From an uncultured Arcobacteraceae bacterium (GTDB lineage: Bacteria > Campylobacterota > Campylobacteria > Campylobacterales > Arcobacteraceae), in contig CAXHZO010000008.1 of assembly GCA_964022095.1 (NCBI GenBank), forward strand, positions 18,729 to 82,728: a DNA stretch of 64,000 bases. The letters are read 5' to 3'. This document shows, in pieces, positions 7,134 to 64,000 of the stretch. The position numbers and the translations under genes were made by a program. The notes beneath the pieces were generated by a model. That model searched no databases and was not told the DNA's origin. It saw only the letters and a list, made by a program, of their open reading frames with translations. The first letter of the stretch is position 1. Each line of letters opens with the position of its first letter.

Positions 7134-7148
7134 AAGCTTCCCTTCATC
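7113..7148 (+). terminator. Imperfect hairpin overlapping the MCP stop codon
   Basis: GATGAAtGGGaAAGCTT-ttag-AAGCTTCCCTTCATC; no clear U tract. Confidence 0.35.
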
Positions 7149-7256
7149 ACATAAGAAATTAGACAAAATCTCTCCTCTTTTATATTTATAAAAAAATAGA
7201 TATAATTCCAAAAATATTAATAAAAACTTACTATTATGAAAAATCAAAGGAAATTT

Positions 7257-8540
7257 ATGAACGATAAAAAAGTAGAGTTACTATCACCAGCTGGTAATTT
7301 AGAAAAGTTAAAAATTGCTATTAAATATGGTGCAGATGCAGTTTATGCAGGTGTTAGTCACTTTAGTTTAAGAATTAGAGCTGGAAAAGAATTCACATTT
7401 GAAACTTTTAAAGAGGGAATCGATTATGCTCATGCAAGAGGCAAAAGAGTATATGCAACTATTAATGGATTTCCTTTTAACTCACAAATTGATTTATTAA
7501 AAAAACATATTTTATCAATGGCTGAACTAGAACCTGATGCATTTATTGTAGCTGCACCCGGTGTTGTAAGATTATGTAGAGAACTAGCTCCTCAAATTCC
7601 AATTCATTTATCAACTCAAGCAAATGTACTAAACTACATGGATGCACAAGTATTTTGGGATATGGGAGTAAAAAGAATTGTTGTTGCAAGAGAAATATCA
7701 TTAAAAGATGTTAAAGAGATAAAAAAACATTTACCTGAAATGGAGATAGAGATTTTTGCTCATGGTTCTATGTGTTTTGCATACTCTGGAAGATGTTTAG
7801 TAAGTGCAGTTCAAATGGGTAGAGTTCCAAATAGAGGATCTTGTGCAAATGATTGTAGATTTGAATATACTTTATATGCTGCAAATGAAGATCATAGCAC
7901 TTTATTTAGATTAGAAGAAGAACCGGGTGTTGGTACTTATATTTTCAATTCAAAAGATTTAAATTTAGCTTCACATATAAAAGAGATTTTAGATTCAGGA
8001 GCGGTTAACGCTCTTAAAATTGAAGGTAGAACAAAATCACCATATTATGCAGCAGTAACAGCAAAAACATATAGAACTGCAATTGATGATTATTTTGCAG
8101 ATAACTTTGAAGCTGATAAATATCAAAGAGAATTACATACTACAAAAAATAGAGGCTTCACTGATGCATACTTAGTTCATAGACCATTTGAGAAAACAGA
8201 TTCTCAAAACCATGAATATGCTTTAAGTAAAGGTTCTTATGAGGTAAGTGGTTTAGTTACAGATGATGAAGAACATTTTATGTGTAAATATAAAACTTTT
8301 CCAAATGAAAATATAGAAATTTTTACACCAAATGGTGAAATTTTACAAGAGTGTGAAAATGAAATTGGGAAGATTTTTAAAGGTGAAAATGGAATTTATT
8401 ACATTAACTTTAAAAAGATACTAACAGAATCAGGAAAAGAGTTAGAAGCAGTTCATAGTGGAAATACTAACAAAATCAAACTTCCTGGAAAACTTCCATA
8501 TCTAACGATGTTTAGAATTGAAAATAAAGAAGAAAATTAA
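7257..8540 (+). CDS. U32 family Fe-S protein (TrhP/YegQ-like tRNA hydroxylation)
   Basis: ELLSPAG, HLSTQAN, CFAYSGRC..CANDC, LKIEGR; start placed at ATG 7257 behind AAGGA (ORF opens at 7236). Confidence 0.85.
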   Translation: MNDKKVELLSPAGNLEKLKIAIKYGADAVYAGVSHFSLRIRAGKEFTFETFKEGIDYAHARGKRVYATINGFPFNSQIDLLKKHILSMAELEPDAFIVAAPGVVRLCRELAPQIPIHLSTQANVLNYMDAQVFWDMGVKRIVVAREISLKDVKEIKKHLPEMEIEIFAHGSMCFAYSGRCLVSAVQMGRVPNRGSCANDCRFEYTLYAANEDHSTLFRLEEEPGVGTYIFNSKDLNLASHIKEILDSGAVNALKIEGRTKSPYYAAVTAKTYRTAIDDYFADNFEADKYQRELHTTKNRGFTDAYLVHRPFEKTDSQNHEYALSKGSYEVSGLVTDDEEHFMCKYKTFPNENIEIFTPNGEILQECENEIGKIFKGENGIYYINFKKILTESGKELEAVHSGNTNKIKLPGKLPYLTMFRIENKEEN

Positions 8541-51978: not shown

Positions 51979-52692
51979 ATGATTAAAAAAAGTATATGGC
52001 TTTCTTTGCTTATTGCTTGTTTTGCATACTCAAGTGAATATTATTCGAAATTAATGCCCTATGAAAGTTATAGTATTAAATCAGCAGTATCAGGAAAAGT
52101 GATTTATGTAAATAGTAAAATAGAAGGTTCAACTGCAAAAAAATCAACTATAATAAAAATTGATTCTAAATTAAATGAAATAGAATTAAGTCAAAATAGA
52201 AAAAAGTTAGCAAGTTTAAACAGTATGATAAATATCGAAAAGCTAAATTATGAAAGATTAAATAAAGTCTCTTCTAAATCAAAATTTGAAAAAGATACAC
52301 AAAAATTAAAAGTTATTAATTATGAGAGTCAAAAAGCAGATTTAATTATAAGAATTGAATCTTTAAAAGATACTATCAAAAATAAAAAATTAGTTGAAAA
52401 CTCTAATTATATTTTTAATATAGCTGTAAAAGAGGGTGATTATGTTAATCCGGGAACTTTACTATATGAAGCAAAAGATTTATCAAAAGGTAAACTAGAA
52501 ATATATGTTCCAATTGAGAGTATAGAATCTATAAAAGATAAATCAATTTTTATTGATGGTGTTAAAAGTGATGTTAAGATAGATAAAATTTACGAAGTTG
52601 CAGATTCTACTCATATCTCTTCATATAAAGTAGAATTAGTTTTAAACAATGTAAATCAATTCTCAAGGTTAGTTAAAGTTGAATTCAAATAA
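51979..52692 (+). CDS. HlyD/membrane-fusion-like periplasmic adaptor
   Basis: Signal peptide, SAVSGKV and VKEGDYVNPGTLL lipoyl halves flanking a helical hairpin. Confidence 0.7.
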   Translation: MIKKSIWLSLLIACFAYSSEYYSKLMPYESYSIKSAVSGKVIYVNSKIEGSTAKKSTIIKIDSKLNEIELSQNRKKLASLNSMINIEKLNYERLNKVSSKSKFEKDTQKLKVINYESQKADLIIRIESLKDTIKNKKLVENSNYIFNIAVKEGDYVNPGTLLYEAKDLSKGKLEIYVPIESIESIKDKSIFIDGVKSDVKIDKIYEVADSTHISSYKVELVLNNVNQFSRLVKVEFK

Positions 52693-54385
52693 TAAAATCG
52701 CATGTCCAATGGACTGCTATGATACATGTCAAGGCACTTATACTGATGGCTTAGTAAAAGGTTCAAAGGATGATTCAATTACTAATGGCAAATTATGTGT
52801 TAATTTTGCTTCTTTATTAAAACAAGAGAATTTAAAATCTGCTAGTTTTGAAAATAAAAATATTTCATTGCATGACTCTTTAGAAATATTAGTTAATAAG
52901 CTAAAACAAACTGATGCTTCAAATACTCTGTTTTATAAAGGCAGTGGAAATTTAGGAGTAATGCAAAGTAGTGTTAAAAACTTCTTTTCTCAACATGGTA
53001 GTGTTCTTACAAAAGGAAGTTTATGTGATGGCGGTGGCGGCGCTGGAATTGAAGCTGGAAGAGGTAGTGTTCAAAACCCTCCAATACAAGATTTAATTGA
53101 TTCTGATGTTATTATAGTTTGGGGAAGAAACTTTACTGTTACTTCATCTCATATGTATAATTTAGTGAAAGATAAAACTTTTATTACTATTGATCCTATT
53201 AAAACTGACATTGCAAAGAAATCTGAATTACATTTACAAATAAATCCAAAAACAGATCATGAATTAGCTTTAATGCTAACGAGAGTTACGTATATGAATA
53301 ATTTAGATGATGAAGAGTATTTAGAAGAAAATACTGAAGGTCATGATTGGTTCTTTGACATATCTAAAAACAGACCATTGGTATCTTATGAAGTTACTAC
53401 TGGGGTTGAATTAAACGACATATATAAACTATTTGAAATTATTGAAAATAAAAAAGTATCAATAGTTTTAGGTTTAGGAGTTCAAAAATATTTTGAAGGT
53501 TCTCAAATAACTAGATGTATTGATTCCTTTGCAACATACCTTGGAATTCATAATCAACAAAGCGGTGGAGTTTGGTACTTAAGTGATTCTAATTATGGAT
53601 ATGAAAAGCAATTTTCATTTAAAGGCAAAAATAAAAAAGTGCCAATACCTACAGTTAATTTTGCTGATTATGACTTAGTCTTTATTCAAGGGGCAAATCC
53701 TGTTGTTACAGCACCAAATTCAAAGTTTGTAATAGAAGGCTTAAAAAATAGTTTTGTTGTTTATTTTGGAACTACAAATAATGATACTTGTGAGTATGCT
53801 GATTTAATAATACCATCAAGTGATTTTTTAAGTAAACAAGATGTTAGGTTATCATATGGGCATGAGTATATTGCTGTCTCGTCTAAAGTAAAGGAAGCTA
53901 AAGAAGGTAGTATTTCAGAGTATGACTTAGCTAAATTTTTAATTGATACATTTTCTTATAAAGCTTTAAAAGATGAAGATGAAGTAATAAAATATTATAC
54001 AGAACATAAAGTAGAGTATGAGAAGTTTGAAACATTTGAGTTTATTGAAGATGTAGAAATTGAACCTTTATATAAAAACAAAACTGATGATGATTTTTAT
54101 TTAATTACTGCAAAAAGTAAGAACTCGTTAAATTCTCAATTTAATATTGATAATAATGTTTATTTAAATAGTTCTACAAATTTTAAAGATGATGATAAAG
54201 TAAAGATAAGCTCAAGGTATGGTAGTGCTGAATTTAATGTAAAAATAAATGATGATATTAAAAGTAATTGTGCATTTTTCTTTTCAGGAAATAGGTTTGT
54301 AAATTATTTAACACCAAATAAAGATGATGAAGACTCTTTTTCTGCTATGTATCAAGAGGTCTTAATACAAATTGAATTATCTTGA
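52679..54385 (+). CDS. Molybdopterin-dependent oxidoreductase (short, no Tat signal)
   Basis: CPMDCYDTC...LC Fe-S motif, IVWGRN, ADLIIP, LNSQF. Confidence 0.8.
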   Translation: MNSNNKIACPMDCYDTCQGTYTDGLVKGSKDDSITNGKLCVNFASLLKQENLKSASFENKNISLHDSLEILVNKLKQTDASNTLFYKGSGNLGVMQSSVKNFFSQHGSVLTKGSLCDGGGGAGIEAGRGSVQNPPIQDLIDSDVIIVWGRNFTVTSSHMYNLVKDKTFITIDPIKTDIAKKSELHLQINPKTDHELALMLTRVTYMNNLDDEEYLEENTEGHDWFFDISKNRPLVSYEVTTGVELNDIYKLFEIIENKKVSIVLGLGVQKYFEGSQITRCIDSFATYLGIHNQQSGGVWYLSDSNYGYEKQFSFKGKNKKVPIPTVNFADYDLVFIQGANPVVTAPNSKFVIEGLKNSFVVYFGTTNNDTCEYADLIIPSSDFLSKQDVRLSYGHEYIAVSSKVKEAKEGSISEYDLAKFLIDTFSYKALKDEDEVIKYYTEHKVEYEKFETFEFIEDVEIEPLYKNKTDDDFYLITAKSKNSLNSQFNIDNNVYLNSSTNFKDDDKVKISSRYGSAEFNVKINDDIKSNCAFFFSGNRFVNYLTPNKDDEDSFSAMYQEVLIQIELS

Positions 54386-55553
54386 GTTATTTAGAACACA
54401 TAAAGTAATAAGAGATTTATCTTTAGTACAGCTAATAGCATACTTTGGTGCTTGGTTTTCTAATGTTGCTATTTACACACTGTTAGTACAATTAGGCTCA
54501 ACAGAGTTAGCAATATCAGTAGTTACTGCTATGCACTTTTTGCCAGCAGTTATAATAGCACCCTTATCTGGTGCGATTATAGATAGGTTTAAAATAAAAC
54601 CTTTAATGTTAACATTAATAGCTATAGAGTTAGTAATGACTTTACTTTTTTTAACCATAGATTCAAAAAATGAAATATGGCTTTTAATGATTTTTATTTT
54701 TATTAGAATGAGTGCTGCTTCAATGTTTTTTTCATCAGAAATGTCATTACTTGCAAAACTACTAAAAGGTCCAGCTTTACAAAAAGCAAATGAGTTACAT
54801 TCAATTATTTGGTCTTTTACTTATGCTGCGGGAATGGCAATTAGTGGTATAGTAGTTAATATAGTAGGTGTAAAAACTGCATTTATAATTGATTCTTTCT
54901 TTTTCATTTTTGCTTTTATATTCTTTACTACTATTAGTTTTGAAATTAAATCAAGTAATCATAGTGAAAAAATATCTAGTCTAATTAAAAATGGGTTTAT
55001 TTATTTGAAAAACAATAAAATTATAATGCATTTAATCATTCTTCATGCAAGTGTGGGCTTAACTACTTTTGATGCCCTAATTACACTGTTGGCAAAAAAC
55101 GAGTACAAATTTTTAATTGCAGTTCCCCTCTCAATTGGAATTTCAAATGCAATTAGAGCAGTTGCATTAATGATAGGCCCACTGATTTTGAGTAAATATG
55201 TAAATAAACATAATCTCCATTATTTATTATTTTTTCAAGGAATTGCTATTATATTATGGGCATTTGTTCAAGAAAGTTTTTATATGTCCTTATTTGCACT
55301 ATTTTTTGTTGGATTGTCTACAACTACCTTATGGTCAATAACATATGCATTAATTCAAGAAAAAACGCAAGAGAAATTTCTAGGTAGAATTATTGCATAC
55401 AATGACATGTTTTTTATGCTAGTGTGTACTTTGATTACATTATTTATAGGTTTAATGACAACTTTAGCAACACTAGATATAATTACCGCACTATTAGGTA
55501 TAGGTTTTGTTATATTTAGTTATTACTACAGTAGGATTTTAAAATGGATATGA
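54372..55553 (+). CDS. MFS transporter
   Basis: About 12 hydrophobic helices, GAIIDRF motif A. Confidence 0.88.
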   Translation: MNYLELFRTHKVIRDLSLVQLIAYFGAWFSNVAIYTLLVQLGSTELAISVVTAMHFLPAVIIAPLSGAIIDRFKIKPLMLTLIAIELVMTLLFLTIDSKNEIWLLMIFIFIRMSAASMFFSSEMSLLAKLLKGPALQKANELHSIIWSFTYAAGMAISGIVVNIVGVKTAFIIDSFFFIFAFIFFTTISFEIKSSNHSEKISSLIKNGFIYLKNNKIIMHLIILHASVGLTTFDALITLLAKNEYKFLIAVPLSIGISNAIRAVALMIGPLILSKYVNKHNLHYLLFFQGIAIILWAFVQESFYMSLFALFFVGLSTTTLWSITYALIQEKTQEKFLGRIIAYNDMFFMLVCTLITLFIGLMTTLATLDIITALLGIGFVIFSYYYSRILKWI

Positions 55554-55768
55554 ATGAAAAAGTTTTTTTACTTGCAGTTTTAAAAAAAGAGAGTGATGAA
55601 ACATTAGTAGATATTGTTGCCAAATTAGAAGCAAATGGATTGTTTTCTTTAAAAGATGGAAAAAAACTATTAAAGAAGTTAAAAAACGAACAATTTTTAA
55701 CAGATACTCACTTAACCTTAAAAGGTGAAGTTACAGCAAAAAGTGTAGAAAAAGAATTTAAAATCTAG
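55544..55768 (+). CDS. Small hypothetical protein (possible winged helix)
   Basis: 74 aa, overlaps the upstream gene; LTLKG motif. Confidence 0.55.
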   Translation: MDMNEKVFLLAVLKKESDETLVDIVAKLEANGLFSLKDGKKLLKKLKNEQFLTDTHLTLKGEVTAKSVEKEFKI

Positions 55769-55770
55769 TT

Positions 55771-57735
55771 ATGAAAATAACAAACTCCTTTAAACTGATA
55801 ATATCAGTACCAATACTGTTTATTATACTAACAGCATCATTTATTACCATTATTCACATTAAACAAGCAGACGATAAATTTGTTAGTGATTATGAGAAGC
55901 TAACTGCTAAATTAATAAAAGAAGAGAAGTCAAAAATTGATTCAATATTGGATTATATTAACTCTTATATTGTTTTTAAAAAAAGATCTTCAATAAATAT
56001 TTTAAAAAATAAAATTCAATCAAATGTTTTAATTGCAGATAAAATGTTAAATACAATATACAATAATAGTGTTGGAATTATTCCTCAAAGTAGCATGCAA
56101 ATTAATTTACTATCTTCTCTAGGAGAGGTAAATACCCGTGAAAACGGGAAATATTTTATTTATGGCATAAATGAAAGTAAAGTAAGTAATAAATCAGAAG
56201 CTTTAATAAATAATAATCTTTTTAATGAAATAAATGCTTTATTAAAAATAAAAAATGAAGGTTTTATCTCTTATATTGAAAAAACTAATGGTAAACTAGA
56301 AAAAAATATTGCTTATATAAAGAAATTTGAGTTCTCTAATTTTGTAATTGGATACAAAGAAAATTTAAAACATTATGAGCAAGAGACAAAAGAAGCTGTT
56401 TTAACCAGACTTGATTTAATGAAAGTAGAGGGATTAGTTTATACATTAAATGACAAGTTAAATATAATACAACACTCAAAAAATAAAGAACTAATAAATA
56501 AAAATATAAATGAACTAGAAGAAGATAAAAATATTTTATATTTACAAAAAGAGTATTTAAAATTTTCAAAATTAGATCTTGTTGAACATGAAAATAATAA
56601 ATACTATTGGAAAAAAGTTGATGAAAACAATTACAAGATAGTTTCGTTTCACTATATAAAGGATTGGGATTGGATAATTGCAATTGACAGAGATATCTTA
56701 GATATAAAAGATAATATAATTGAAATTATTGGAATACAGCAAAATCAAAGAGATGAAACAATAAGTGATTCTATAAAAACAGCACTACTGTTTATATTTA
56801 TAGCAAGTATAATTTCTTATTTTATATCAGATTATATAAATGAAATAATCAGAAGCTATAGAAGAAATATTGAGAAACAAAAAGTTGTGCTTAAACATTT
56901 AAATAGCTCACTAGAAGATAAAGTTGAAGAAAAAACTAAGATGCTTCAAGATTTAAACAATGAAATTATTGATAAATTTAAAATTGAAGTAAAAAAGAAT
57001 AAACAAAAAGATCAATTATTATCAGATCAATCTAAATTGGCAGTTATGGGTGAAATGATGGGTAATATTGCTCATCAATGGAGACAACCATTAAGTACTA
57101 TTACAACTATAGCAAGTGGAAATACAATAAAAATAGATTATGATATTCATGAAAAATCAGAGTTAAAACGTGATTTTGAAACAATTGTAGATACAGCTCA
57201 ATATTTATCTCATACTGTAGATGATTTTAGAAATTTCTTTATTGAAAACAAAAATATTGAAAAATTTGATTTAAGAGATATTATAGAAAGAGATTTATCT
57301 TTAATTGGCTCTTCTTTAATTAATAATCACATTAATATTGTAAAAAACTATAATAGTGTTGAAATTAGATCAATCAAAAATGAATTAACACAAGCTTTTT
57401 TAAATATATTAAATAACTCAAGAGATGCTATTTTATTAAATGAAAAATCAAATAGAATTATTGTTATTGATATCTATAATAACGATAAGGGTGCTATAAT
57501 TGAAATTAAAGATAGTGGTGGAGGTATTAAAGAGGAGTTGTTAAATAGAATCTTTGAACAATATTTTACTACTAAAGATAAACAAGCTGGTACTGGATTA
57601 GGTTTATATATGACCAAGCAGATTATAGAAGAGAACTTAAAAGGTAAACTTGATGTAAGAAATGAAGAGTTTGTAGATGATGATCAAATTCATTTTGGTG
57701 CTTGTTTCAAGATAACTTTACCTTTAAAGATTTAA
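55771..57735 (+). CDS. Membrane sensor histidine kinase with Cache-like sensor
   Basis: IAHQWRQPL H-box, NILNNSRDA, DSGGGI, GTGLGLY. Confidence 0.93.
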   Translation: MKITNSFKLIISVPILFIILTASFITIIHIKQADDKFVSDYEKLTAKLIKEEKSKIDSILDYINSYIVFKKRSSINILKNKIQSNVLIADKMLNTIYNNSVGIIPQSSMQINLLSSLGEVNTRENGKYFIYGINESKVSNKSEALINNNLFNEINALLKIKNEGFISYIEKTNGKLEKNIAYIKKFEFSNFVIGYKENLKHYEQETKEAVLTRLDLMKVEGLVYTLNDKLNIIQHSKNKELINKNINELEEDKNILYLQKEYLKFSKLDLVEHENNKYYWKKVDENNYKIVSFHYIKDWDWIIAIDRDILDIKDNIIEIIGIQQNQRDETISDSIKTALLFIFIASIISYFISDYINEIIRSYRRNIEKQKVVLKHLNSSLEDKVEEKTKMLQDLNNEIIDKFKIEVKKNKQKDQLLSDQSKLAVMGEMMGNIAHQWRQPLSTITTIASGNTIKIDYDIHEKSELKRDFETIVDTAQYLSHTVDDFRNFFIENKNIEKFDLRDIIERDLSLIGSSLINNHINIVKNYNSVEIRSIKNELTQAFLNILNNSRDAILLNEKSNRIIVIDIYNNDKGAIIEIKDSGGGIKEELLNRIFEQYFTTKDKQAGTGLGLYMTKQIIEENLKGKLDVRNEEFVDDDQIHFGACFKITLPLKI

Positions 57736-57844
57736 CTTTTAGAAACAAACTTTTAATTTACCTAAAAATTATAGAATAAAATTTTTTTACATACTTTTCT
57801 TTAGTTATAATCATATATAGTAAAAAGAAAAAAGAGGGTAAAAG

Positions 57845-58408
57845 ATGATTTTAGATTATAAAGAAGTTGACGATTTAAATAGATATAAGATTATGTCAGG
57901 AACTGTAATTCCAAGACCAATTGCTTGGATTGTAACTGAGGATAATGGAGTACTAAACTGTGCACCATTTTCATATTTTATTCCTATATCTTCGAATCCA
58001 GCTTTAGTATTAGTGGCTATTGGTCAAAAAGATGATGGTACTCCTAAAGATTCGCTAGCAAATATACTAAAAACTAAAAAAGCTACAATTTGTTTTGCAA
58101 AAAAAGAGCATGCTGAACTTGTTCAAAAATGTGCTACTCCATTAGGAAAAGATGAAAGTGAAGTTGAGAAGTTTGAAATAGATGTAAATACAGTGCTAGA
58201 TGATTTCCCTCCAATGATTGCAAGCTCTCAAAGTGCACTTTTTTGTGAGTATTATGATACTTATAAAATACCAGGTGTTACAACTCCAGTTATATTAGAA
58301 GTTAAAAAGCAGTTTATCGAAGATGACAAAATTAATGATAGAAATCATGTAAATATTGATAATATTGGTAGATGTGGAGTTAAGTTTAAAGGTTTAGTTG
58401 ATTTATAG
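57845..58408 (+). CDS. Flavin reductase-like FMN-binding protein
   Basis: VIPRPIAWIVT, NCAPFSYF, KDSLANI. Confidence 0.85.
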   Translation: MILDYKEVDDLNRYKIMSGTVIPRPIAWIVTEDNGVLNCAPFSYFIPISSNPALVLVAIGQKDDGTPKDSLANILKTKKATICFAKKEHAELVQKCATPLGKDESEVEKFEIDVNTVLDDFPPMIASSQSALFCEYYDTYKIPGVTTPVILEVKKQFIEDDKINDRNHVNIDNIGRCGVKFKGLVDL

Positions 58409-58409
58409 A

Positions 58410-58438
58410 AATTAAAAGGAGAGATTCTCCTTTTAATT
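58410..58438. terminator. Bidirectional terminator between convergent genes
   Basis: AATTAAAAGGAGA-gat-TCTCCTTTTAATT perfect inverted repeat. Confidence 0.85.
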
Positions 58439-58446
58439 GAAGTAAA

Positions 58447-58884
58447 TTATACTTCTGTATTTCCACAGTGTCCACATTTTTTAGCTGCAATTGGAATTTC
58501 CATTGCACATTCTGAACATACTTTAGTAGTTGGTTCTGCTGGAGTTTCTTCTTCTTTTTTCTTCATTTTATTGTAAGACTTAATAAACATAAACATTACA
58601 AAACCTAAGATAACAAAAGAGATTGTATCATTTAAAAATAATCCAATCTTAATTGCAGGAGCGCCAGCTTTATCTAACGCAGCCATTGTTTCATAAACTT
58701 TTCCATCAAGTGCAATAAATAATTGAGAAAAATCAACATTTCCTAATAACATTCCAACAGGAGGCATAATTACATTAGCTACTAGCGATTTCACAAGTGT
58801 AGCAAAAGCTGCACCAAAGATAAAACCAATGGCCATATCAATCATGTTTCCTTTAACTAGAAACTCTTTAAATTCTTTAAGCAT
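58447..58884 (-). CDS. mscL: Large-conductance mechanosensitive channel with C-terminal zinc ribbon
   Basis: MLKEFKEFLVKGNMIDMAIG; tail CSEC-x10-CGHC. Confidence 0.93.
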   Translation of the reverse strand: MLKEFKEFLVKGNMIDMAIGFIFGAAFATLVKSLVANVIMPPVGMLLGNVDFSQLFIALDGKVYETMAALDKAGAPAIKIGLFLNDTISFVILGFVMFMFIKSYNKMKKKEEETPAEPTTKVCSECAMEIPIAAKKCGHCGNTEV

Positions 58885-58952: not shown

Positions 58953-59786
58953 TTACTTTACAAATTGATGTAGTTTAGAACATTTACTTAAAAAAGTATC
59001 CATCCCACACATATCATTATACATATCATCAAATGAATGGAAATGAGCATCGTAAATATATACAAAAATTTCATCATCTTTTTGTAAAAAGTTTTTCTTA
59101 CCAAAATCTGCATATGCTGTAGCACCTGCAGCTATTAATATACCTTTTGCATCTTTTGCATATTTTGTAAATTGAGTTAGTTCTTCAAGTGGCCCACAAT
59201 CTTCTTGTGTATTAAGTTTTTCTATCATCCAATCTTTTAATTGTTTGAAGAAGTAGCTATATGAATTTACAGCACTAATTGTTCCATAGTCATGAACTAT
59301 TCCATCTCTTTTAATAAAAGAGGCAATATGGTATCTATTTAATATTCCATCTTCTGTAAAGTCATCAATTTCAATAATATCTCTTGAGATACCTTTTGTA
59401 TTCTCTCCCCAGTTTTTTTTTGTACTTAATTTATTTCCATCTTGAATTCTTATTGAACAGTCATTAAATGCTGAAAAATATTTAGGGATAATGTCTTTGA
59501 CTTTTCCATCTTCATATACAAAGTCACATATTAAGGCTACTTCTGCTTCAACTTGTAAGTTTTCATTTTCTCTACCATGAGTTAAAATTACTTCATCACA
59601 AATTGGATAAGTACCTAAAAAGCTATCGTGGCCTTTTATATAAAAAGGAAACATTCCTTTTGGAGCGTCTTTTTCTTCTGTTTGAATTACTGAAAATTCA
59701 TCTGCTTCACCAGCTTCTCCTAGGTGATTAGCAAAGTTTCCAGCTACTCCAAATCCTAAGTAGTCTTTTAAATCTTCTAATAACAT
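58953..59786 (-). CDS. DUF5718-like protein with fumarylacetoacetate-hydrolase-like motifs
   Basis: GNFANH..E, EAEVAL, AFNDCSIR, KKNW. Confidence 0.6.
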   Translation of the reverse strand: MLLEDLKDYLGFGVAGNFANHLGEAGEADEFSVIQTEEKDAPKGMFPFYIKGHDSFLGTYPICDEVILTHGRENENLQVEAEVALICDFVYEDGKVKDIIPKYFSAFNDCSIRIQDGNKLSTKKNWGENTKGISRDIIEIDDFTEDGILNRYHIASFIKRDGIVHDYGTISAVNSYSYFFKQLKDWMIEKLNTQEDCGPLEELTQFTKYAKDAKGILIAAGATAYADFGKKNFLQKDDEIFVYIYDAHFHSFDDMYNDMCGMDTFLSKCSKLHQFVK

Positions 59787-59942: not shown

Positions 59943-61436
59943 TTAAATAGTTCTCCATTTAGCAGGCCCAGTAGTATGAATAGAAACACCTTCAGTATCA
60001 ACTGCAACAGTAACAGGCATGTCTTTTACTTCAAACTCATAAATAGCTTCCATACCCATCTCTTCAAATGCAAGAACTTTTGCATCTTTAATTGATTGTG
60101 AAATTAAATAAGCAGCACCACCTGTTGCAATTAAATACATAGATTTGTACTCTTTGATTAAATCAATTGTTGGTTGCTTTCTCTCAGCCTTACCAATCAT
60201 TCCCATAATCCCAATTTCCATCATATCTTTTGTAAATTTATCCATTCTAGTAGATGTAGTTGGACCTGCTGGTCCTACTTTTTCATCTCTTACTGGATCA
60301 ACTGGTCCTACGTAGTAAATAAATCTATCTTTTAAATCAACTCCATTTGGAAGTGGCTTACCTGCATTTTTGTACTCAACAATTTTTTTGTGAGCGGCAT
60401 CCCTTGCAGTTAAGATTTTTCCTGATAATAATAATGTATCACCTGATTTAAATTGAGATAAATTCTCTTTTGTTAAATCTTCAATATTTACTTTTTTAAT
60501 AGTATCCATTGGTAATTCAATATCTGGCCAAAGGTCTAAGTCTGGTTTAACAAATTTAGCTGGTCCATTTCCATCTAATTCAAAATGAATATGTCTAGTA
60601 GCAGCACAGTTAGGAATCATAGCAACTGGAAGTGATGCTGCATGACATGGATAATCTAAAATCTTAACATCAACAACAGTAGTTAAACCACCAAGTCCTT
60701 GTGCTCCAATACCAATTTTGTTAATATCTTCATATAATCTTAATCTTAACTCTTCAAGTGCGTTTTGAGGACCTCTTGCTTTTAAGTCTTGAATATCAAC
60801 ATGCCCCATTAAAGCTTCTTTTGCTAAAAGCATTGATTTCTCTGGATTACCACCAATACCAATACCTAAAATACCTGGAGGACACCATCCTGCTCCCATT
60901 TCTCTAACATTAGCCATAACCCAGTCATAAACTGAATCAGATGGGTTTAGTACTGCAAATTTAGATTTGTTTTCACTACCTCCACCTTTAGCTGCAACTG
61001 TGATATCTAGTTTATCAGACTGAGAATCAACAGAAAAATGAATAACTGCTGGAGTATTGTCTTTAGTGTTTTTTCTCTCTCCTGCAGGATCAGATACTAC
61101 TGAGAATCTTAATGTATTATCTGGATCTGTATAACCTTTAGCAACACCTGCATTTAACACATCTTCTAATTGTTTAGAAACATCTAACTTGGCTTTTAAT
61201 CCAAGTTTAACAAAGATATTTACTGAACCTGTATCTTGACATAAAGGTCTATGTCCCATTGCACACATTTTAGAGTTAATTAAAATTTGTCCAATTGCAT
61301 TTTTTGCTGATTCACTTTGCTCTTTTTCATATGCTTCTACCATACTTTTTACAAAGTCTTCTGGGTGATAAAAAGAAATATATTGACATGCGTCGGCTAT
61401 ACTATCTACTATATCTTGTTCTGTTATTACGCTCAT
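59943..61436 (-). CDS. Class I (Fe-S) fumarate hydratase
   Basis: CQDTG, KGGGSEN, GWCPP, CAATRH, GPTTSTRM; fused alpha and beta domains. Confidence 0.95.
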   Translation of the reverse strand: MSVITEQDIVDSIADACQYISFYHPEDFVKSMVEAYEKEQSESAKNAIGQILINSKMCAMGHRPLCQDTGSVNIFVKLGLKAKLDVSKQLEDVLNAGVAKGYTDPDNTLRFSVVSDPAGERKNTKDNTPAVIHFSVDSQSDKLDITVAAKGGGSENKSKFAVLNPSDSVYDWVMANVREMGAGWCPPGILGIGIGGNPEKSMLLAKEALMGHVDIQDLKARGPQNALEELRLRLYEDINKIGIGAQGLGGLTTVVDVKILDYPCHAASLPVAMIPNCAATRHIHFELDGNGPAKFVKPDLDLWPDIELPMDTIKKVNIEDLTKENLSQFKSGDTLLLSGKILTARDAAHKKIVEYKNAGKPLPNGVDLKDRFIYYVGPVDPVRDEKVGPAGPTTSTRMDKFTKDMMEIGIMGMIGKAERKQPTIDLIKEYKSMYLIATGGAAYLISQSIKDAKVLAFEEMGMEAIYEFEVKDMPVTVAVDTEGVSIHTTGPAKWRTI

Positions 61437-61464
61437 TTTTTCCCTTTTGCTTAGAAATTTAATA

Positions 61465-61473
61465 ATTATACCA
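61465..61473 (-). promoter_or_regulatory. Extended -10 promoter for the fumarase gene
   Basis: Reverse complement reads TGgTATAAT, 28 bp before the ATG. Confidence 0.6.
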
Positions 61474-61570
61474 ATGTAGGGATGAAATTCATCTTTTTTG
61501 TAGGTATTTAAAGTGATTATTTTAAAATATGTTTAGTTTTGAAATATAATTTTGTAGTTTTGAAAAATAG

Positions 61571-61599
61571 TAAAATTAAGGCAATTTGCCTTAATTTTA
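61571..61599 (-). terminator. Terminator after the lyase gene
   Basis: TAAAATTAAGGCA-att-TGCCTTAATTTTA perfect inverted repeat. Confidence 0.75.
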
Positions 61600-61607
61600 A
61601 ATGATTA

Positions 61608-62591
61608 TTAAGAGAAGAATCTTTTAGTTACATCTTCCATTAATTTAGCACCAGAGAAGTGTGCTCTTTGAACTAATTCCCAGAAATATCTGTAAGTAGC
61701 TCTATCATGTAATTCACCATCATATTGGATTGGTCCCCACTCAGCATCTTGTGCTAATAATAAAATATTTTGAGCAGCTTCTAATTCAGTAAAGTCTGGT
61801 TTCATAGCATCAACAATTGCTGTTACTTGTGTTGGGTAAATTGACCACATTCTCATGAATCCGAACTCATTTCTAGCTCTTTCAGCATCTTTATAAGTTT
61901 GGTATGGGTTTTTAAGATCAAGTGTTACATTGTGTGCTGGAATAACATGGTTTTGGATAGCTGCTTGTGCAACTTTCGCTTTTGCTGCACCAATTAATCT
62001 GTGATCAAATTGACCAGGAGATCTCATATTAGATGCAGGAATTGCACCTTGGTAACCAGAAACAAAGTCCATTAATCCAAAGTCTAAAACTTGTAGCCAT
62101 GGTAATGTAGCAGTTTTCTCTACATCTTGTAATGCACCATGAGTTTCAATTAAGATATGAATTGGAATTTCTCTTGAAATACCAGCTTCTTTAGCTACTT
62201 TTTGAATATACTCAATTTGAGTTTTAGCTTCTTCATATGAAGTTGATTTAGGTAAAGTAATGTATGCTAATTTTTCACCAGCACCAGGAACTAAAATATC
62301 AACATCTTGTCTCCAATCTGGGTGAGAGAAATCATGAATTCTTGTACCAGCCATACCATATGGGTTAGCATCAGAGTTAACAACTCTAACAATCATATTT
62401 GCATGCTCAACTTCTTTACCAGTTTCTGCACCATCTTCACAGTCACAAGTAATATCAAAAACAGGTCCAAGTTTTTTTTGCATCTCGAAACCTTTTAAAA
62501 TTAGTTTCTCGCTTCCTGCAAAGTGCTCACAAGTTGGAATAATTGGTAAAGATTTACCAGATTCAAATAGTGCTTCGTTTGGGTGTGTCAT
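61608..62591 (-). CDS. CitE/HpcH-family CoA-ester lyase
   Basis: DCEDG, LPK, LIET, FGLMDF, WSIYPTQ. Confidence 0.85.
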   Translation of the reverse strand: MTHPNEALFESGKSLPIIPTCEHFAGSEKLILKGFEMQKKLGPVFDITCDCEDGAETGKEVEHANMIVRVVNSDANPYGMAGTRIHDFSHPDWRQDVDILVPGAGEKLAYITLPKSTSYEEAKTQIEYIQKVAKEAGISREIPIHILIETHGALQDVEKTATLPWLQVLDFGLMDFVSGYQGAIPASNMRSPGQFDHRLIGAAKAKVAQAAIQNHVIPAHNVTLDLKNPYQTYKDAERARNEFGFMRMWSIYPTQVTAIVDAMKPDFTELEAAQNILLLAQDAEWGPIQYDGELHDRATYRYFWELVQRAHFSGAKLMEDVTKRFFS

Positions 62592-62618
62592 ATTTTTATC
62601 CTTTTTATTAAATTGAAT

Positions 62619-63677
62619 TTATTTTTTTGTAATTTTTTTTGGAATGATTACTGTGTAATCTAAATCAAGTACAACGTTCTTTAAGTACTTACCGTCTTCA
62701 CCTTTTGGATTCTCAATCTCAGAAGATTTTTGATTTTTCACAGCAATCGTTCTTAATCTTAATAATCCTATATCATCTCTTTTGTGATCAATTGTATCTA
62801 ATACTTCTGTATAAGCATAGATAGTATCTCCAGCATATGTTGGATTAGCATGAGCACCAGAGTTAATAGCATACATCCATTGTGCATTTTGTAAACCATT
62901 AAATGAAATTGCTCTTGCCATTGAAATAACAATTCCACCATACATTAATCTCTCTCCCATAGGAGTAGATTTCATCATATGGTCATTAAAATGAACTTTT
63001 GCATTGTTTTGGTATAACTTTGTTGCTAGTGTATGGTCACTATTATCAATTGTAATACCTTCTGGGTGATTTAATCTTTCACCAATTTTGTAATCTTCAA
63101 AGAAAAACTTTCCACCAGTTGAATCAGTATCAACAGATTTTACAACTGGAATATTAATCTCATCAGCTATAGGAGTACACTCTTCAAATGTTGGAATTTC
63201 TTTAATTCCTGATAATGTTTCTTTATCTTTTTTATGAACCATTACCCATCTTTTGAAATTTAATACTTCTTCACCTTTTTGGTTTACACCAATTGAGTGA
63301 ACATAAACAACTCCAGATTTACCATTTGAGTTCTCTTTTAACCCAATAACAGTTGAAGTCATAGAAACTGTATCCCCTGTATACACTGGATTAGGGAAAG
63401 AGATCTCTGCATAACCTAAATTAGCAATTGCATTTAATGAAATATCTTGAACTGACTTACCAAATGTTAAGTGAAAGTTTAATGTATCATCAATTGGTCT
63501 TTTTTCATATCCCATTTCATTTGCTACAACATCAGATGAGTGTAAAGCAAATCTAGAACCAGTAAAAGCAATGTATAAAGATACATCACCTTCACTAATT
63601 GTTCTAGGAAGAGGGTGAATGATTTTTTGACCTATTGAAAAATCTTCAAAAAAGTTACCCATATTTATTTTAGACAT
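62619..63677 (-). CDS. mch: Double hot-dog MaoC dehydratase, mesaconyl-C1-CoA hydratase-like
   Basis: GNFFEDF..RTISEGDVSLY..GSRFAL..FGKSVQDISLNAIANLGYA closely follows Chloroflexus/Rhodobacter Mch as remembered; 352 aa. Confidence 0.75.
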   Translation of the reverse strand: MSKINMGNFFEDFSIGQKIIHPLPRTISEGDVSLYIAFTGSRFALHSSDVVANEMGYEKRPIDDTLNFHLTFGKSVQDISLNAIANLGYAEISFPNPVYTGDTVSMTSTVIGLKENSNGKSGVVYVHSIGVNQKGEEVLNFKRWVMVHKKDKETLSGIKEIPTFEECTPIADEINIPVVKSVDTDSTGGKFFFEDYKIGERLNHPEGITIDNSDHTLATKLYQNNAKVHFNDHMMKSTPMGERLMYGGIVISMARAISFNGLQNAQWMYAINSGAHANPTYAGDTIYAYTEVLDTIDHKRDDIGLLRLRTIAVKNQKSSEIENPKGEDGKYLKNVVLDLDYTVIIPKKITKK

Positions 63678-63686
63678 ATTTTTCCC

Positions 63687-64000
63687 TTATTTACCAAATA
63701 GGTTTTGACCTAATGATTTATATGTTTCATATAATGTAATCATTTTAGTCGCCCATTTAATTTTAGAACCATCAACAAGTTTATCATTGTACATGATAAC
63801 TTCTTTACCTTCTTTTTTAGCTGCTTCCCAAGCTTTAATCATTCCTTCGAACATTTCAACTTCAGCTTGTTTTGGAGTAAAGATATCATTAATGTATTCA
63901 ATTTGAACTGGATGGATTAATGATTTACCATCAAATCCTAAATTGAATGCATCTTTAGTTGAATCTTCACAAGCAAACTCATCTTTAACATCAAAGTGAG
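63687..64000 (-). CDS. CitE-family lyase or thioesterase, C-terminal part (5'-truncated; not in the ORF track)
   Basis: Manual translation: HFDVKDEFACEDSTKDAFNLGFDGKSLIHPVQIEYINDIFTP...GQNLFGK*; GFDGKxxIHPxQ is a CitE signature; stop lies 9 bp before mch. Confidence 0.85.
   Translation of the reverse strand, partial: HFDVKDEFACEDSTKDAFNLGFDGKSLIHPVQIEYINDIFTPKQAEVEMFEGMIKAWEAAKKEGKEVIMYNDKLVDGSKIKWATKMITLYETYKSLGQNLFGK

What the first reader, a model, noticed from the sequence alone, without database searches (positions are those of the whole stretch)
59943..64000. Candidate C5-dicarboxylate (methylmalyl/mesaconyl/citramalyl-CoA) module in a Campylobacterota genome
Seen: a tight minus-strand run of CitE-like gene, Mch-like hydratase and second CitE-like lyase, then a terminator and a class I fumarase. 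Known: Mch interconverts beta-methylmalyl-CoA and mesaconyl-C1-CoA in the ethylmalonyl-CoA pathway, 3-hydroxypropionate bicycle and methylaspartate cycle. CitE-family enzymes include malyl/methylmalyl/citramalyl-CoA lyases and malyl-CoA thioesterase, and class I fumarases can hydrate mesaconate. Inference: together they could link acetyl-CoA + pyruvate with propionyl-CoA + glyoxylate, giving isocitrate-lyase-independent acetate assimilation or glyoxylate/propionate co-assimilation. I do not know of such a route being described in this phylum.
Basis: partly seen in the sequence, partly recalled or inferred. Interest (0 to 1): 0.78.

Follow-up and report, generated by a model that had tools for sequence, protein, structure and literature searches.

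The report
Known Arcobacter methylmalyl-CoA gene cluster
This is the tail end of a gene cluster for CoA-ester chemistry of small branched dicarboxylic acids that was already predicted from the Arcobacter butzleri genome in 2007 and has apparently never been tested at the bench.

Summary
The "first CitE-like gene" is only the last 103 codons of an 839-aa fusion (AMP-forming acyl-CoA synthetase plus CitE-like domain), cut by the contig end. A further 376-aa CitE/HpcH-like gene lies upstream on another contig.

The cluster is the ortholog of ab1917-ab1921 of A. butzleri RM4018. Miller et al. 2007 (PMC2147049) already gave it the same interpretation, so the idea is not new for this phylum. I found no bench follow-up.

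New here:
- The hydratase is a convincing Mch (E 1.6e-109 to the Chloroflexus structure; 9 of 9 named active-site residues kept).
- The two stand-alone CitE-like proteins keep all six catalytic residues. The fused CitE domain lacks a Mg ligand and evolves faster.
- The fumarase lies inside the cluster in only some genomes. A DUF5718 gene, shown here to have an FAH fold, is the steadier neighbour.
- The genome has no malate synthase, true isocitrate lyase, family-III CoA-transferase, second Mch-like hydratase, Ccr, methylaspartase or SucCD.
- PrpB co-occurs with the cluster.

Acetate assimilation is disfavoured. The physiological role remains open.

The parts
63687..64000 (-). 3' end (last 103 codons plus stop) of an 839-aa fusion: AMP-forming acyl-CoA synthetase plus CitE-like domain. 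It is cut by the contig end. This piece holds the C-terminal lid of the CitE-like domain with the conserved lid Asp.
   Evidence: citE E 7.7e-17. Searches show the full-length gene in G001 (PF00501 250.5 bits, PF03328 112.9 bits). One search shows 100% identity to G001 residues 737-839. Searches show the lid Asp in 14 of 14 orthologs.
62619..63677 (-). Mesaconyl-C1-CoA hydratase / beta-methylmalyl-CoA dehydratase (Mch/MeaC) ortholog, 352 aa, two-domain MaoC fold.
   Evidence: PF19315 85.4 bits. PDB 4e3e E 1.6e-109 and 8hgn E 2e-102 over nearly the full length. Nine of nine residues named for MeMeaC are identical (one search read).
61608..62591 (-). Stand-alone CitE-like CoA-ester lyase, 327 aa, of the uncharacterised 3qqw/3r4i clade. 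Its catalytic residue set is complete.
   Evidence: 3qqw E 5e-137, 3r4i E 9.8e-101, malyl-CoA lyase 4l9y only E 2.9e-11. E52, D53, R84, E149, D175 and D296 are kept in 14 of 14 orthologs.
61571..61599 (-). Terminator-like palindromic hairpin (13 pairs, 3 of them G-C) with a T-rich tail, directly after the stop of the 327-aa gene.
59943..61436 (-). Single-chain class I (Fe-S) fumarate hydratase, 497 aa. It is a neighbour in some genomes rather than a constant cluster member.
   Evidence: It is the only PF05681 gene in the genome. Two class-II-type genes lie elsewhere. Its position varies among relatives.
58953..59786 (-). DUF5718 protein, 277 aa, with a fumarylacetoacetate-hydrolase (FAH) superfamily fold. 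It is the most constant downstream neighbour of the cluster in Arcobacteraceae.
   Evidence: PF18985 313.5 bits. AlphaFold2 model pLDDT 95.1, pTM 0.92. All listed Foldseek PDB hits are FAH-family, best E 1.3e-08, probability 1.00, TM about 0.5.

Best explanation
The window's last 4 kb is the downstream part of an Arcobacteraceae gene cluster orthologous to ab1917-ab1921 of A. butzleri.

Gene order:
- a 376-aa CitE/HpcH-like lyase (on contig C14, outside the window);
- an 839-aa fusion of acyl-CoA synthetase and CitE-like domain (only its tail is in the window);
- Mch;
- a 327-aa CitE-like lyase;
- a hairpin;
- in this lineage, a class I fumarase;
- a DUF5718 (FAH-fold) gene.

Most likely mechanism:
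1. The synthetase domain makes the CoA thioester of a C4/C5 dicarboxylic acid at the cost of ATP. Mesaconate is the leading candidate; this step is inferred. It would replace the CoA-transferases of all characterised versions.
2. Mch interconverts mesaconyl-C1-CoA and beta-methylmalyl-CoA. This step is well supported by homology and active-site identity.
3. One of the two catalytically complete stand-alone lyases interconverts beta-methylmalyl-CoA with propionyl-CoA + glyoxylate. The other interconverts glyoxylate + acetyl-CoA with malyl-CoA, or pyruvate + acetyl-CoA with citramalyl-CoA. This is inferred, and which protein does which is unknown.
4. Propionyl-CoA enters or leaves through the methylcitrate cycle. 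This is inferred from co-occurrence.

The fused CitE-like domain has lost a canonical Mg ligand and is probably not a standard lyase. The fumarase is probably the cell's low-oxygen TCA fumarase. It may also hydrate mesaconate, but it is not a fixed part of the module. The direction of flux and the physiological substrate are not settled.
For: Orthology to the published cluster:
- The gene order and domain layout match those described for AB1917-AB1921.
- A. butzleri proteins are among the 81-100% identical, 838-842-aa fusion homologs. All 120 listed carry PF00501 + PF03328.

Mch:
- E 1.6e-109 to 4e3e and 2e-102 to 8hgn.
- 4e3e is the C. aurantiacus protein and 8hgn is the M. extorquens MeaC (PMC10164722 passages).
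- F71, S79, N85, K113, R142, N226, H231, Y248 and G249 of MeMeaC are all identical.

Lyases:
- The six residues called conserved across the CitE-like superfamily (PMC3832036 passages) are kept in 14 of 14 orthologs of both stand-alone proteins.

Conservation:
- The four-gene core is intact in 14 of 14 relatives' loci of at least 10 kb.
- It is also intact in 18 of 20 named Arcobacteraceae loci found through DUF5718.
- Mean pairwise identity is 87-88% for the two lyases.

Metabolic logic in the own genome:
- No malate synthase.
- The only ICL-family hit is PrpB.
- No family-III CoA-transferase.

Co-occurrence and expression:
- PrpB above its cut-off is in 16 of 16 Mch-positive and 1 of 9 Mch-negative family genomes.
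- RNA-library contigs from marine and wastewater samples cover the genes. One 807-nt contig with one mismatch bridges the junction between the 327-aa gene and Mch.
Against: - No enzyme of this cluster has been assayed, as far as searches show.
- Neither stand-alone CitE-like protein groups with a characterised malyl-/methylmalyl-CoA lyase. The 327-aa protein's nearest relatives are uncharacterised structural-genomics proteins, and it matches Mcl only at E 2.9e-11. The 376-aa protein matches nothing better than E 1.7e-09. NCBIfam equivalogs score far below their cut-offs, for example 34 against 500.
- The CitE-like domain closest to real Mcl and CLYBL is the fused one (5ugr E 3.5e-24), and that one lacks the Asp168 and Asp45 equivalents.
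- None of the three has the Glu lid reported for the malyl-CoA thioesterase clade, so a malate-forming step has no obvious catalyst in the cluster.
- The synthetase's substrate cannot be read from sequence. Its best matches are generic short/medium-chain and aryl-CoA ligases at about 1e-55.
- No transporter or regulator is visibly tied to the cluster.
- The PrpB co-occurrence may only reflect shared ancestry of one subclade.
- RNA contigs cannot prove transcription or operon structure.
Confidence: 0.55

Rival explanations
1. Itaconate/citramalate degradation without a CoA-transferase. The synthetase activates itaconate (or citramalate). The Mch-like protein acts as itaconyl-CoA (or mesaconyl-C4-CoA) hydratase and gives (S)-citramalyl-CoA. 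A CitE-like lyase cleaves this to pyruvate + acetyl-CoA. The fumarase feeds in mesaconate via citramalate.
For: - NCBIfam RipB/Ich is the top hit of the hydratase's N-terminal half (116 bits), and RipC/Ccl hits the fused CitE domain (120.9 bits).
- CLYBL, a CitE-like protein, matches the fused domain at 6.4e-22.
- MaoC-type hydratases related to 4e3e have itaconyl-CoA hydratase activity in M. tuberculosis (PMC11789021 passages). That paper also mentions an IcH homolog in Campylobacter coli (its SI figure was not seen).
- Class I fumarases can act as mesaconases (PMC4682846, search listing and start of abstract only).
Against: - The RipB and RipC scores are far below their cut-offs (340 and 375).
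- The hydratase is much closer to true Mch (369 bits over the full length) and keeps all nine MeMeaC pocket residues.
- The fused CitE domain, the best Ccl/CLYBL-like candidate, lacks a Mg ligand.
- Two further lyases would have no role.
- The PrpB co-occurrence would be unexplained.
Confidence: 0.18
2. Glyoxylate plus propionyl-CoA disposal in the direction proposed in 2007. Glyoxylate + propionyl-CoA gives beta-methylmalyl-CoA, then mesaconyl-C1-CoA. A free-acid bypass replaces Mct and Meh: thioester hydrolysis, hydration of mesaconate by the fumarase, then ATP-dependent re-activation of citramalate. The fused or a stand-alone lyase then cleaves the product to pyruvate + acetyl-CoA.
For: - Miller et al. 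2007 proposed this direction.
- It uses every activity, including the ligase and the fumarase.
- A fusion of ligase and lyase makes most sense if the ligase product is the lyase substrate.
- Mct and Meh are absent.
Against: - No thioesterase-type (Glu-lid) CitE is present.
- The fused lyase domain has a defective metal site.
- The fumarase is not in the cluster in 8 of 14 relatives' loci, and no class I fumarase was found in G020, which has the cluster.
- The route costs two extra ATP equivalents per turn.
Confidence: 0.15
3. Acetate assimilation independent of isocitrate lyase, by a citramalate-cycle-like or ethylmalonyl-CoA-like route.
For: No true isocitrate lyase and no malate synthase are present. 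Mch and CitE-like lyases are shared with such pathways.
Against: - A. butzleri, which carries the orthologous cluster, is reported not to grow on acetate, propionate or both (PMC2147049, data not shown there).
- No Ccr, no methylaspartase, no family-III CoA-transferase, no Meh.
Confidence: 0.05

Closest known systems
Gene cluster ab1917-ab1921 of Arcobacter butzleri RM4018 (Miller et al. 2007, PMC2147049)
   Same: Same gene order and domain layout: CitE-like, synthetase+CitE fusion, enoyl-CoA hydratase, CitE-like, class I fumarase. A. butzleri fusion proteins are about 84% identical to the G001 ortholog. The proposed chemistry is the same.
   Different: This is a different genus (Poseidonibacter-like). 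Details not in the passages I read of the 2007 paper: the altered metal site of the fused CitE domain, the DUF5718/FAH neighbour, the variable position of the fumarase, and the co-occurrence with PrpB.
Mesaconyl-CoA hydratase Mch/MeaC of Chloroflexus aurantiacus (PDB 4e3e) and Methylorubrum extorquens (PDB 8hgn)
   Same: Full-length two-domain MaoC architecture, E 1.6e-109 and 2e-102, and all nine named pocket and catalytic residues identical.
   Different: Those enzymes work in the 3-hydroxypropionate bi-cycle and the ethylmalonyl-CoA pathway. Neither pathway is present here.
Malyl-CoA/beta-methylmalyl-CoA lyases (R. sphaeroides Mcl1, 4l9y; C. aurantiacus MCL, 4l7z; 5ugr) and malyl-CoA thioesterase Mcl2
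   Same: CitE-like TIM-barrel superfamily. The two stand-alone proteins keep the E44, D45, R76, E141, D168 and D299 equivalents.
   Different: Only distant sequence similarity (E 2.9e-11 or weaker for the stand-alone proteins). None has the Glu lid of the Mcl2 clade. The fused domain is nearer (E 3.5e-24 to 3.9e-19) but lacks the D45 and D168 equivalents.
Lower part of the haloarchaeal methylaspartate cycle (mesaconate CoA-transferase, Mch, beta-methylmalyl-CoA lyase, CitE-like malate synthase)
   Same: [quoted passage not shown]
   Different: Activation is by an AMP-forming ligase instead of a succinyl-CoA-dependent transferase. No methylaspartase was found. The haloarchaeal NCBIfam equivalogs score far below their cut-offs (83.5 of 560 and 34 of 500).
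Itaconate degradation module Ict/Ich/Ccl (Yersinia RipABC, Pseudomonas PA0878-0883)
   Same: A CoA-ester hydratase plus a CitE-like lyase acting on a branched C5 dicarboxylate.
   Different: RipB and RipC models score below their cut-offs (116 of 340 and 121 of 375). There is no CoA-transferase. The hydratase is Mch-type.
Structural-genomics CitE-like proteins 3qqw (Ralstonia eutropha JMP134) and 3r4i (Burkholderia xenovorans)
   Same: The 327-aa protein is their close homolog (E 5e-137 and 9.8e-101).
   Different: Their function is unknown (listed only as 'CitE-like' in PMC3832036 Table 1). In three Betaproteobacteria chromid or plasmid records (two Burkholderiales, one Rhodocyclales) the homolog sits in other contexts, without Mch: next to pyruvate carboxylase, or with a CoA-transferase, a CoA-ester lyase and a TTT binding protein.

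Membership tests
Mesaconyl-CoA hydratase (Mch/MeaC, PF19315) | Two-domain MaoC (double hot-dog) protein of about 350 aa matching the family model over its length | tested here: met
   PF19315 85.4 bits (cut-off 26.5), residues 6-316 on profile positions 20-338 of 353.
Mesaconyl-CoA hydratase (Mch/MeaC, PF19315) | Close similarity to biochemically studied Mch enzymes | tested here: met
   4e3e E 1.6e-109 and 8hgn E 2e-102, aligned over residues 2-348. The identity of those entries is from PMC10164722.
Mesaconyl-CoA hydratase (Mch/MeaC, PF19315) | Catalytic Asn/His pair and the residues that bind the methylmalyl moiety (F71, S79, N85, K113, R142, N226, H231, Y248, G249 of MeMeaC) | tested here: met
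   Nine of nine are identical in the printed alignment. The NNAKVH motif is present in the G001 ortholog.
Mesaconyl-CoA hydratase (Mch/MeaC, PF19315) | Reversible hydration of mesaconyl-C1-CoA to beta-methylmalyl-CoA | not testable with these tools
   Needs an enzyme assay.
Malyl-CoA/beta-methylmalyl-CoA lyase (CitE-like superfamily) | Conserved residues E44, D45, R76, E141, D168 and lid D299 (R. sphaeroides numbering) | tested here: met
   The 376-aa protein (E70, D71, R100, E161, D187, D327) and the 327-aa protein (E52, D53, R84, E149, D175, D296) keep them in 14 of 14 orthologs each.
Malyl-CoA/beta-methylmalyl-CoA lyase (CitE-like superfamily) | The same six residues in the fused CitE-like domain | tested here: not met
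   Among 14 orthologs, the D168 equivalent is K in 9, N in 4 and S in 1, never D. The D45 equivalent is A in 13 and M in 1. E44, R76 and E141 also vary. The lid Asp is kept in 14 of 14.
Malyl-CoA/beta-methylmalyl-CoA lyase (CitE-like superfamily) | Grouping with a characterised Mcl clade, or reaching an equivalog model cut-off | tested here: not met
   Mcl structures match only at E 2.9e-11 (327 aa) and 1e-08 (376 aa). NF041626 scores 34, 20.6 and 31.7 bits against a cut-off of 500. No tree with characterised sequences could be built.
Malyl-CoA thioesterase (Mcl2 clade) | Glu in place of the lid Asp | tested here: not met
   Asp in 14 of 14 orthologs for all three CitE-like domains. The criterion is from PMC3832036.
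3-hydroxypropionate bi-cycle glyoxylate module (Mcl, Mch, Mct, Meh) | Mesaconyl-CoA C1-C4 transferase (family III) and a second hydratase (Meh) | tested here: not met
   No PF02515 match. A single PF19315 match in the genome. The genome is 99.99% complete.
Ethylmalonyl-CoA pathway | Crotonyl-CoA carboxylase/reductase | tested here: not met
   TIGR01751 best 47.1 bits against a cut-off of 378.55.
Methylaspartate cycle | Methylaspartate ammonia-lyase and succinyl-CoA:mesaconate CoA-transferase | tested here: not met
   No PF07476 match. No PF02515 match.
Itaconate degradation (Ict/Ich/Ccl) | RipB/Ich and RipC/Ccl equivalogs over their cut-offs, plus an itaconate CoA-transferase | tested here: not met
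   NF038241 scores 116.1 of 340. NF038242 scores at most 120.9 of 375. No family-III transferase was found. Family-I transferases were not searched.
Class I (Fe-S) fumarate hydratase | Fumerase N-terminal and Fumerase_C domains | tested here: met
   311 and 262.3 bits in one 497-aa chain. Mesaconase activity was not testable.
FAH superfamily (for DUF5718) | FAH fold | tested here: met
   Model pLDDT 95.1. All listed Foldseek PDB hits are FAH-family, best E 1.3e-08, probability 1.00, TM 0.47-0.56. Sequence and profile searches of the PDB found nothing. That the nearly invariant H21, E80, E82, D109 and K124 correspond to the FAH metal and catalytic set is recalled, not tested.

The most novel reading that the evidence does not exclude
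Arcobacteraceae run a CoA-transferase-independent, ATP-driven beta-methylmalyl-CoA/mesaconate route. Together with the methylcitrate cycle, it would stand in for the missing malate synthase and isocitrate lyase in a TCA cycle that also lacks SucCD. This would be a natural, working version of the once-proposed 'citramalate cycle' chemistry. In this reading the fused CitE-like domain, which has lost a Mg ligand but keeps the lid Asp, is not a lyase. It would be either a new kind of thioesterase or a lid-donating, channelling partner of the stand-alone lyases. The FAH-fold DUF5718 protein would supply a so far unassigned step on a 2-oxo-dicarboxylate.
Probability: 0.15. Interest if true: 0.65.

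Novelty: already known. Interest (0 to 1): 0.3.

Why it matters
The cluster is an unusual piece of central carbon metabolism for Campylobacterota. In a sample of 300 other genomes of the phylum, the hydratase was found in 12 of 15 genomes of the own family, 2 of 11 of one neighbouring family, and 0 of 274 elsewhere. Arcobacteraceae are abundant in sewage, marine and animal-associated habitats and include the emerging pathogen A. butzleri.

A prediction made in 2007 has, as far as the held library shows, never been tested. The value of this work is therefore to sharpen that prediction: which proteins are catalytically complete, which domain is aberrant, which neighbours are constant, and which known pathways are excluded. 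It does not reveal something new. If the pathway were shown to work, it would be the first ligase-dependent variant of the methylmalyl-CoA module, and it would give a function to the widespread 3qqw-type CitE clade.

Tried and rejected
- Earlier notes of this scan: none for this genome.
- DUF5718 against PDB sequences, as a single sequence and as a profile: no meaningful hit. Only the fold search worked.
- Fused forms of DUF5718 (HAD, M20 peptidase, EF-hand, WD40, lysozyme): no functional hint.
- Protein Atlas: gave only family-level leads. For DUF5718 there was a weak 0.85 row in which 11% of members carry FAA_hydrolase. For the 376-aa protein there was a 0.89 row of archaeal 'citrate lyase beta', 36% with the malate-synthase barrel. 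These are leads, not evidence.
A 12-sequence alignment worked.
- DUF5718 as an independent witness for function: rejected. Of 80 loci, only the 20 with at least 65% identity (all Arcobacteraceae) include the cluster, in 18 of the 20. The 60 more distant homologs (Sulfurimonas, Sulfuricurvum, Sulfurovum, Thiomicrorhabdus, Vibrio, Photobacterium and others) have no cluster gene in their flanks. For that count, hits covering less than half of a query were dropped, except for the fusion. One weak generic AMP-binding hit (23%) remained in L054. The adjacency may therefore be inherited synteny.
- Contexts of the 3qqw-type gene on 3 of the 18 Betaproteobacteria (mostly Burkholderiales) and Sphingobium plasmid or chromid records: heterogeneous, no Mch nearby.
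- Homolog listings for DUF5718 and the fusion showed only close relatives (at least 77% and at least 81% identity), so they say nothing about distribution outside the family.
- RNA-library contigs: in run X9 the bin 61465-61635, which holds the hairpin, has almost no cover while both sides are covered.
- Promoter-like sites are not enriched (19 found against 25.5 +/- 5.0 in shuffles), so no promoter is claimed.
- A heteromer prediction for the fused CitE domain with the stand-alone lyases was considered but not run. Paralogs of solved homotrimers would tend to pass by likeness.
- A tree with characterised Mcl1, Mcl2, Ccl and HaloMS was not built, because no stored copies of those sequences were available.
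- Supplements were not consulted. SI figures of PMC11789021 (IcH phylogeny including Campylobacter coli) and the 'data not shown' growth tests of PMC2147049 could bear on the rival readings.

Full report
**What is in the sequence**

The region holds, all on the minus strand:
- a 497-aa class I fumarase (59943-61436);
- a 327-aa CitE/HpcH-like protein (61608-62591);
- a 352-aa two-domain MaoC hydratase (62619-63677);
- an open-ended 103-aa CitE-like frame (63687-63998).

A 277-aa DUF5718 gene (58953-59786) follows the fumarase. Spacers in the run of three are 27 and 9 nt. A 13-pair hairpin with a T-rich tail lies at 61599-61571, directly after the 327-aa gene.

The window stops at the end of contig C8. 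In the closed genome of the same genus (G001) the order is:
- bioD;
- a 376-aa HpcH/CitE-like gene;
- an 839-aa gene with an AMP-binding acyl-CoA synthetase (PF00501, 250.5 bits) fused to an HpcH/CitE domain (112.9 bits);
- the hydratase;
- the 327-aa gene;
- the fumarase;
- DUF5718.

The window's 103 residues are 100% identical to residues 737-839 of that fusion. The 376-aa gene lies at the end of contig C14 of the own assembly. Residues 1-736 of the fusion are not assembled. The 'first CitE-like gene' is thus the tail of a synthetase-lyase fusion, and the module has three CitE-like domains, not two.

**Already published**

Miller et al. 2007 (PMC2147049; passages, section 9 read whole) describe exactly this cluster as ab1917-ab1921 of A. 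butzleri RM4018.
- AB1917 and AB1920 are CitE-like.
- AB1918 is an acetyl-CoA-synthetase-like protein with a CitE domain at residues 550-825.
- AB1919 is an enoyl-CoA hydratase for mesaconyl-CoA.
- AB1921 is an anaerobic fumarase that might hydrate mesaconate.

[quoted passage not shown] A. butzleri proteins are among the 838-842-aa fusion homologs at 81-100% identity to G001; all 120 listed carry PF00501 + PF03328.

Full-text searches for Arcobacter or Aliarcobacter with mesaconyl-CoA, malyl-CoA, citramalate cycle or methylcitrate, and for mesaconate-CoA ligase, found no later experimental work. The prediction, however, remains untested.

**The hydratase**

It matches the C. aurantiacus protein 4e3e at E 1.6e-109 and the M. 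extorquens MeaC 8hgn at 2e-102 over nearly its whole length. The identities of these entries and the active-site residues come from PMC10164722. All nine residues named there (F71, S79, N85, K113, R142, N226, H231, Y248, G249) are identical in the printed alignment. This is the best-supported step: mesaconyl-C1-CoA to and from beta-methylmalyl-CoA.

**The three CitE-like domains**

PMC3832036 (passages) gives the residues conserved in the whole superfamily: E44, D45, R76, E141, D168 and the lid D299 of the R. sphaeroides enzyme. It also reports a Glu lid in the malyl-CoA thioesterase clade. I mapped these through the PDB alignments onto 14 orthologs from 14 family genomes.
- The 376-aa and 327-aa proteins keep all six residues in 14 of 14.
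- In the fused domain the D168 equivalent is K (9), N (4) or S (1), and never D. The D45 equivalent is A (13) or M (1). E44, R76 and E141 also vary. The lid Asp is kept in 14 of 14.
- The fused domain evolves faster: mean pairwise identity 68.3%, against 80.5% for the synthetase part and 87-88% for the stand-alone proteins.
- None of the three has a Glu lid.

By similarity, the 327-aa protein belongs with the uncharacterised structural-genomics proteins 3qqw and 3r4i (5e-137 and 9.8e-101) and is far from Mcl (2.9e-11). The 376-aa protein is far from everything solved (best 1.7e-09). The aberrant fused domain is the one nearest to Mcl, CLYBL and RipC (3.5e-24 to 7.1e-16). There are therefore two credible lyases of unknown specificity and one non-canonical domain.

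**Which neighbours belong**

In 14 relatives' loci of at least 10 kb:
- the four-gene core is always intact;
- the fumarase sits between the 327-aa gene and DUF5718 in 6;
- DUF5718 follows in 13.

Among 80 named loci found with a DUF5718 alignment, 20 are close (at least 65% identity, all Arcobacteraceae), and 18 of those carry the core. Among the 18, the fumarase lies between the two genes in 9, lies 3-9 kb downstream in 3, and is not in the flanks in 6. The 60 more distant DUF5718 genes have no cluster gene nearby.

DUF5718 folds confidently (pLDDT 95.1) into an FAH-superfamily fold. All listed hits are FAH-family enzymes, including KdaD, Cg1458, YisK, HpcE and FAHD1, with best E 1.3e-08 and probability 1.00. 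Its link to the cluster is synteny within one clade only.

**Genome-wide logic**

The own genome (99.99% complete) has:
- no malate synthase;
- an ICL-family hit that is PrpB;
- no family-III CoA-transferase;
- no methylaspartase;
- one MC_hydratase only;
- no Ccr;
- no SucCD-type ligase;
- one class I and two class-II-type fumarase/aspartase genes.

This excludes the 3-hydroxypropionate bi-cycle module, the ethylmalonyl-CoA pathway and the methylaspartate cycle as such.

Within the family, 16 genomes are Mch-positive (including the own genome) and 9 are Mch-negative.
- PrpB over its cut-off is found in 16 of 16 Mch-positive and 1 of 9 Mch-negative genomes.
- The long single-chain fumarase frame is found in 14 of 16 Mch-positive genomes (one more is fragmentary; none was found in G020) and in 1 of 9 Mch-negative genomes.
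- All 9 Mch-negative genomes carry the short alpha-subunit type.

These genomes are related to one another, so this is suggestive only.

Taxonomically, the hydratase is in 15 of 24 other family genomes and 0 of 16 other families of the order in one sample. In a phylum-wide sample of 300 it is in 12 of 15 genomes of the own family, 2 of 11 of one other family, and 0 of 274 elsewhere.

**Expression**

Of 21 runs from 10 studies that hold part of the stretch, four RNA-type runs were laid as contigs. Contigs 90-99% alike cover the genes in a marine and a wastewater RNA library. One 807-nt contig with one mismatch bridges the junction between the 327-aa gene and Mch. This is compatible with expression, but it proves neither transcription nor operon structure.

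**Verdict**

The finding is real, and its core enzymology is reasonable. It is an ortholog of a cluster interpreted in the same way in 2007, so it is already known as a prediction.

The best reading (confidence about 0.55) is an ATP-dependent, transferase-free module linking a C4/C5 dicarboxylate via mesaconyl-C1-CoA and beta-methylmalyl-CoA to propionyl-CoA + glyoxylate. A second lyase would handle glyoxylate, and the methylcitrate cycle would handle propionyl-CoA.

The rivals are:
- itaconate/citramalate degradation (0.18);
- the 2007 direction with a free-acid bypass (0.15);
- acetate assimilation (0.05), which is disfavoured by the reported lack of growth on acetate and propionate and by the missing key enzymes.

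Residual interest lies in the never-tested biochemistry, the aberrant fused CitE domain and the unassigned 3qqw-type lyase.

Noticed in passing
window 58953-59786 (-): DUF5718 (PF18985), a family without known function, has a fumarylacetoacetate-hydrolase superfamily fold (pLDDT 95.1; all listed Foldseek PDB hits are FAH-family). H21, E80, E82, D109 and K124 are nearly invariant across 48 diverse members. The family has 314 representatives at 50% clustering and is common in sulfur-oxidising Campylobacterota and Gammaproteobacteria that lack the CoA-ester cluster.
   Followed up: yes
L016:12733-13614 (G001); only the lid part is in window 63687-64000: The CitE-like domain fused to the acyl-CoA synthetase lacks the equivalents of Asp168 (K, N or S instead) and Asp45 (A or M instead), residues described as absolutely conserved in the superfamily. 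It keeps the lid Asp, and it evolves faster than the rest of the cluster. Asn697, just before the missing Asp, is invariant and might substitute as a ligand; this was not tested.
   Followed up: partly
G000 contig ends: C14:56456-57454 and C8 end (= window 64000): Both contigs break inside the cluster. About 2.36 kb (by G001 coordinates), including the whole synthetase domain, is missing from the assembly. No other contig holds it (tblastn). The cause of the break is unknown.
   Followed up: partly
whole genome G000: No Ligase_CoA (SucCD-type) gene and no family-III CoA-transferase were found, as reported for A. butzleri, which lacks SucCD and Sdh. How succinyl-CoA is turned over in these organisms is not obvious.
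   Followed up: no
window 52679-58884: Genes beyond DUF5718: MscL (58447-58884, -), a flavin reductase-like protein (57845-58408, +), a dCache_2 sensor histidine kinase (55771-57735, +), an MFS transporter (54372-55553, +) and a molybdopterin oxidoreductase-like protein (52679-54385, +). No link to the cluster was shown.
   Followed up: no
L043 (MAG chromosome labelled Halarcobacter ebronensis), about 5116-8180: The fusion gene matches in two overlapping pieces, and the Mch match stops at residue 184. These may be frameshifts or assembly errors in that record, or a decaying copy.
   Followed up: no
L044 and L051: Second DUF5718 copies (about 70% identical) in a Poseidonibacter lekithochrous contig and in a MAG, without the cluster in the available flanks.
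   Followed up: no
G014 and G018: Two single-chain class I fumarase genes per genome. In G014 one lies next to the cluster and one elsewhere.
   Followed up: no
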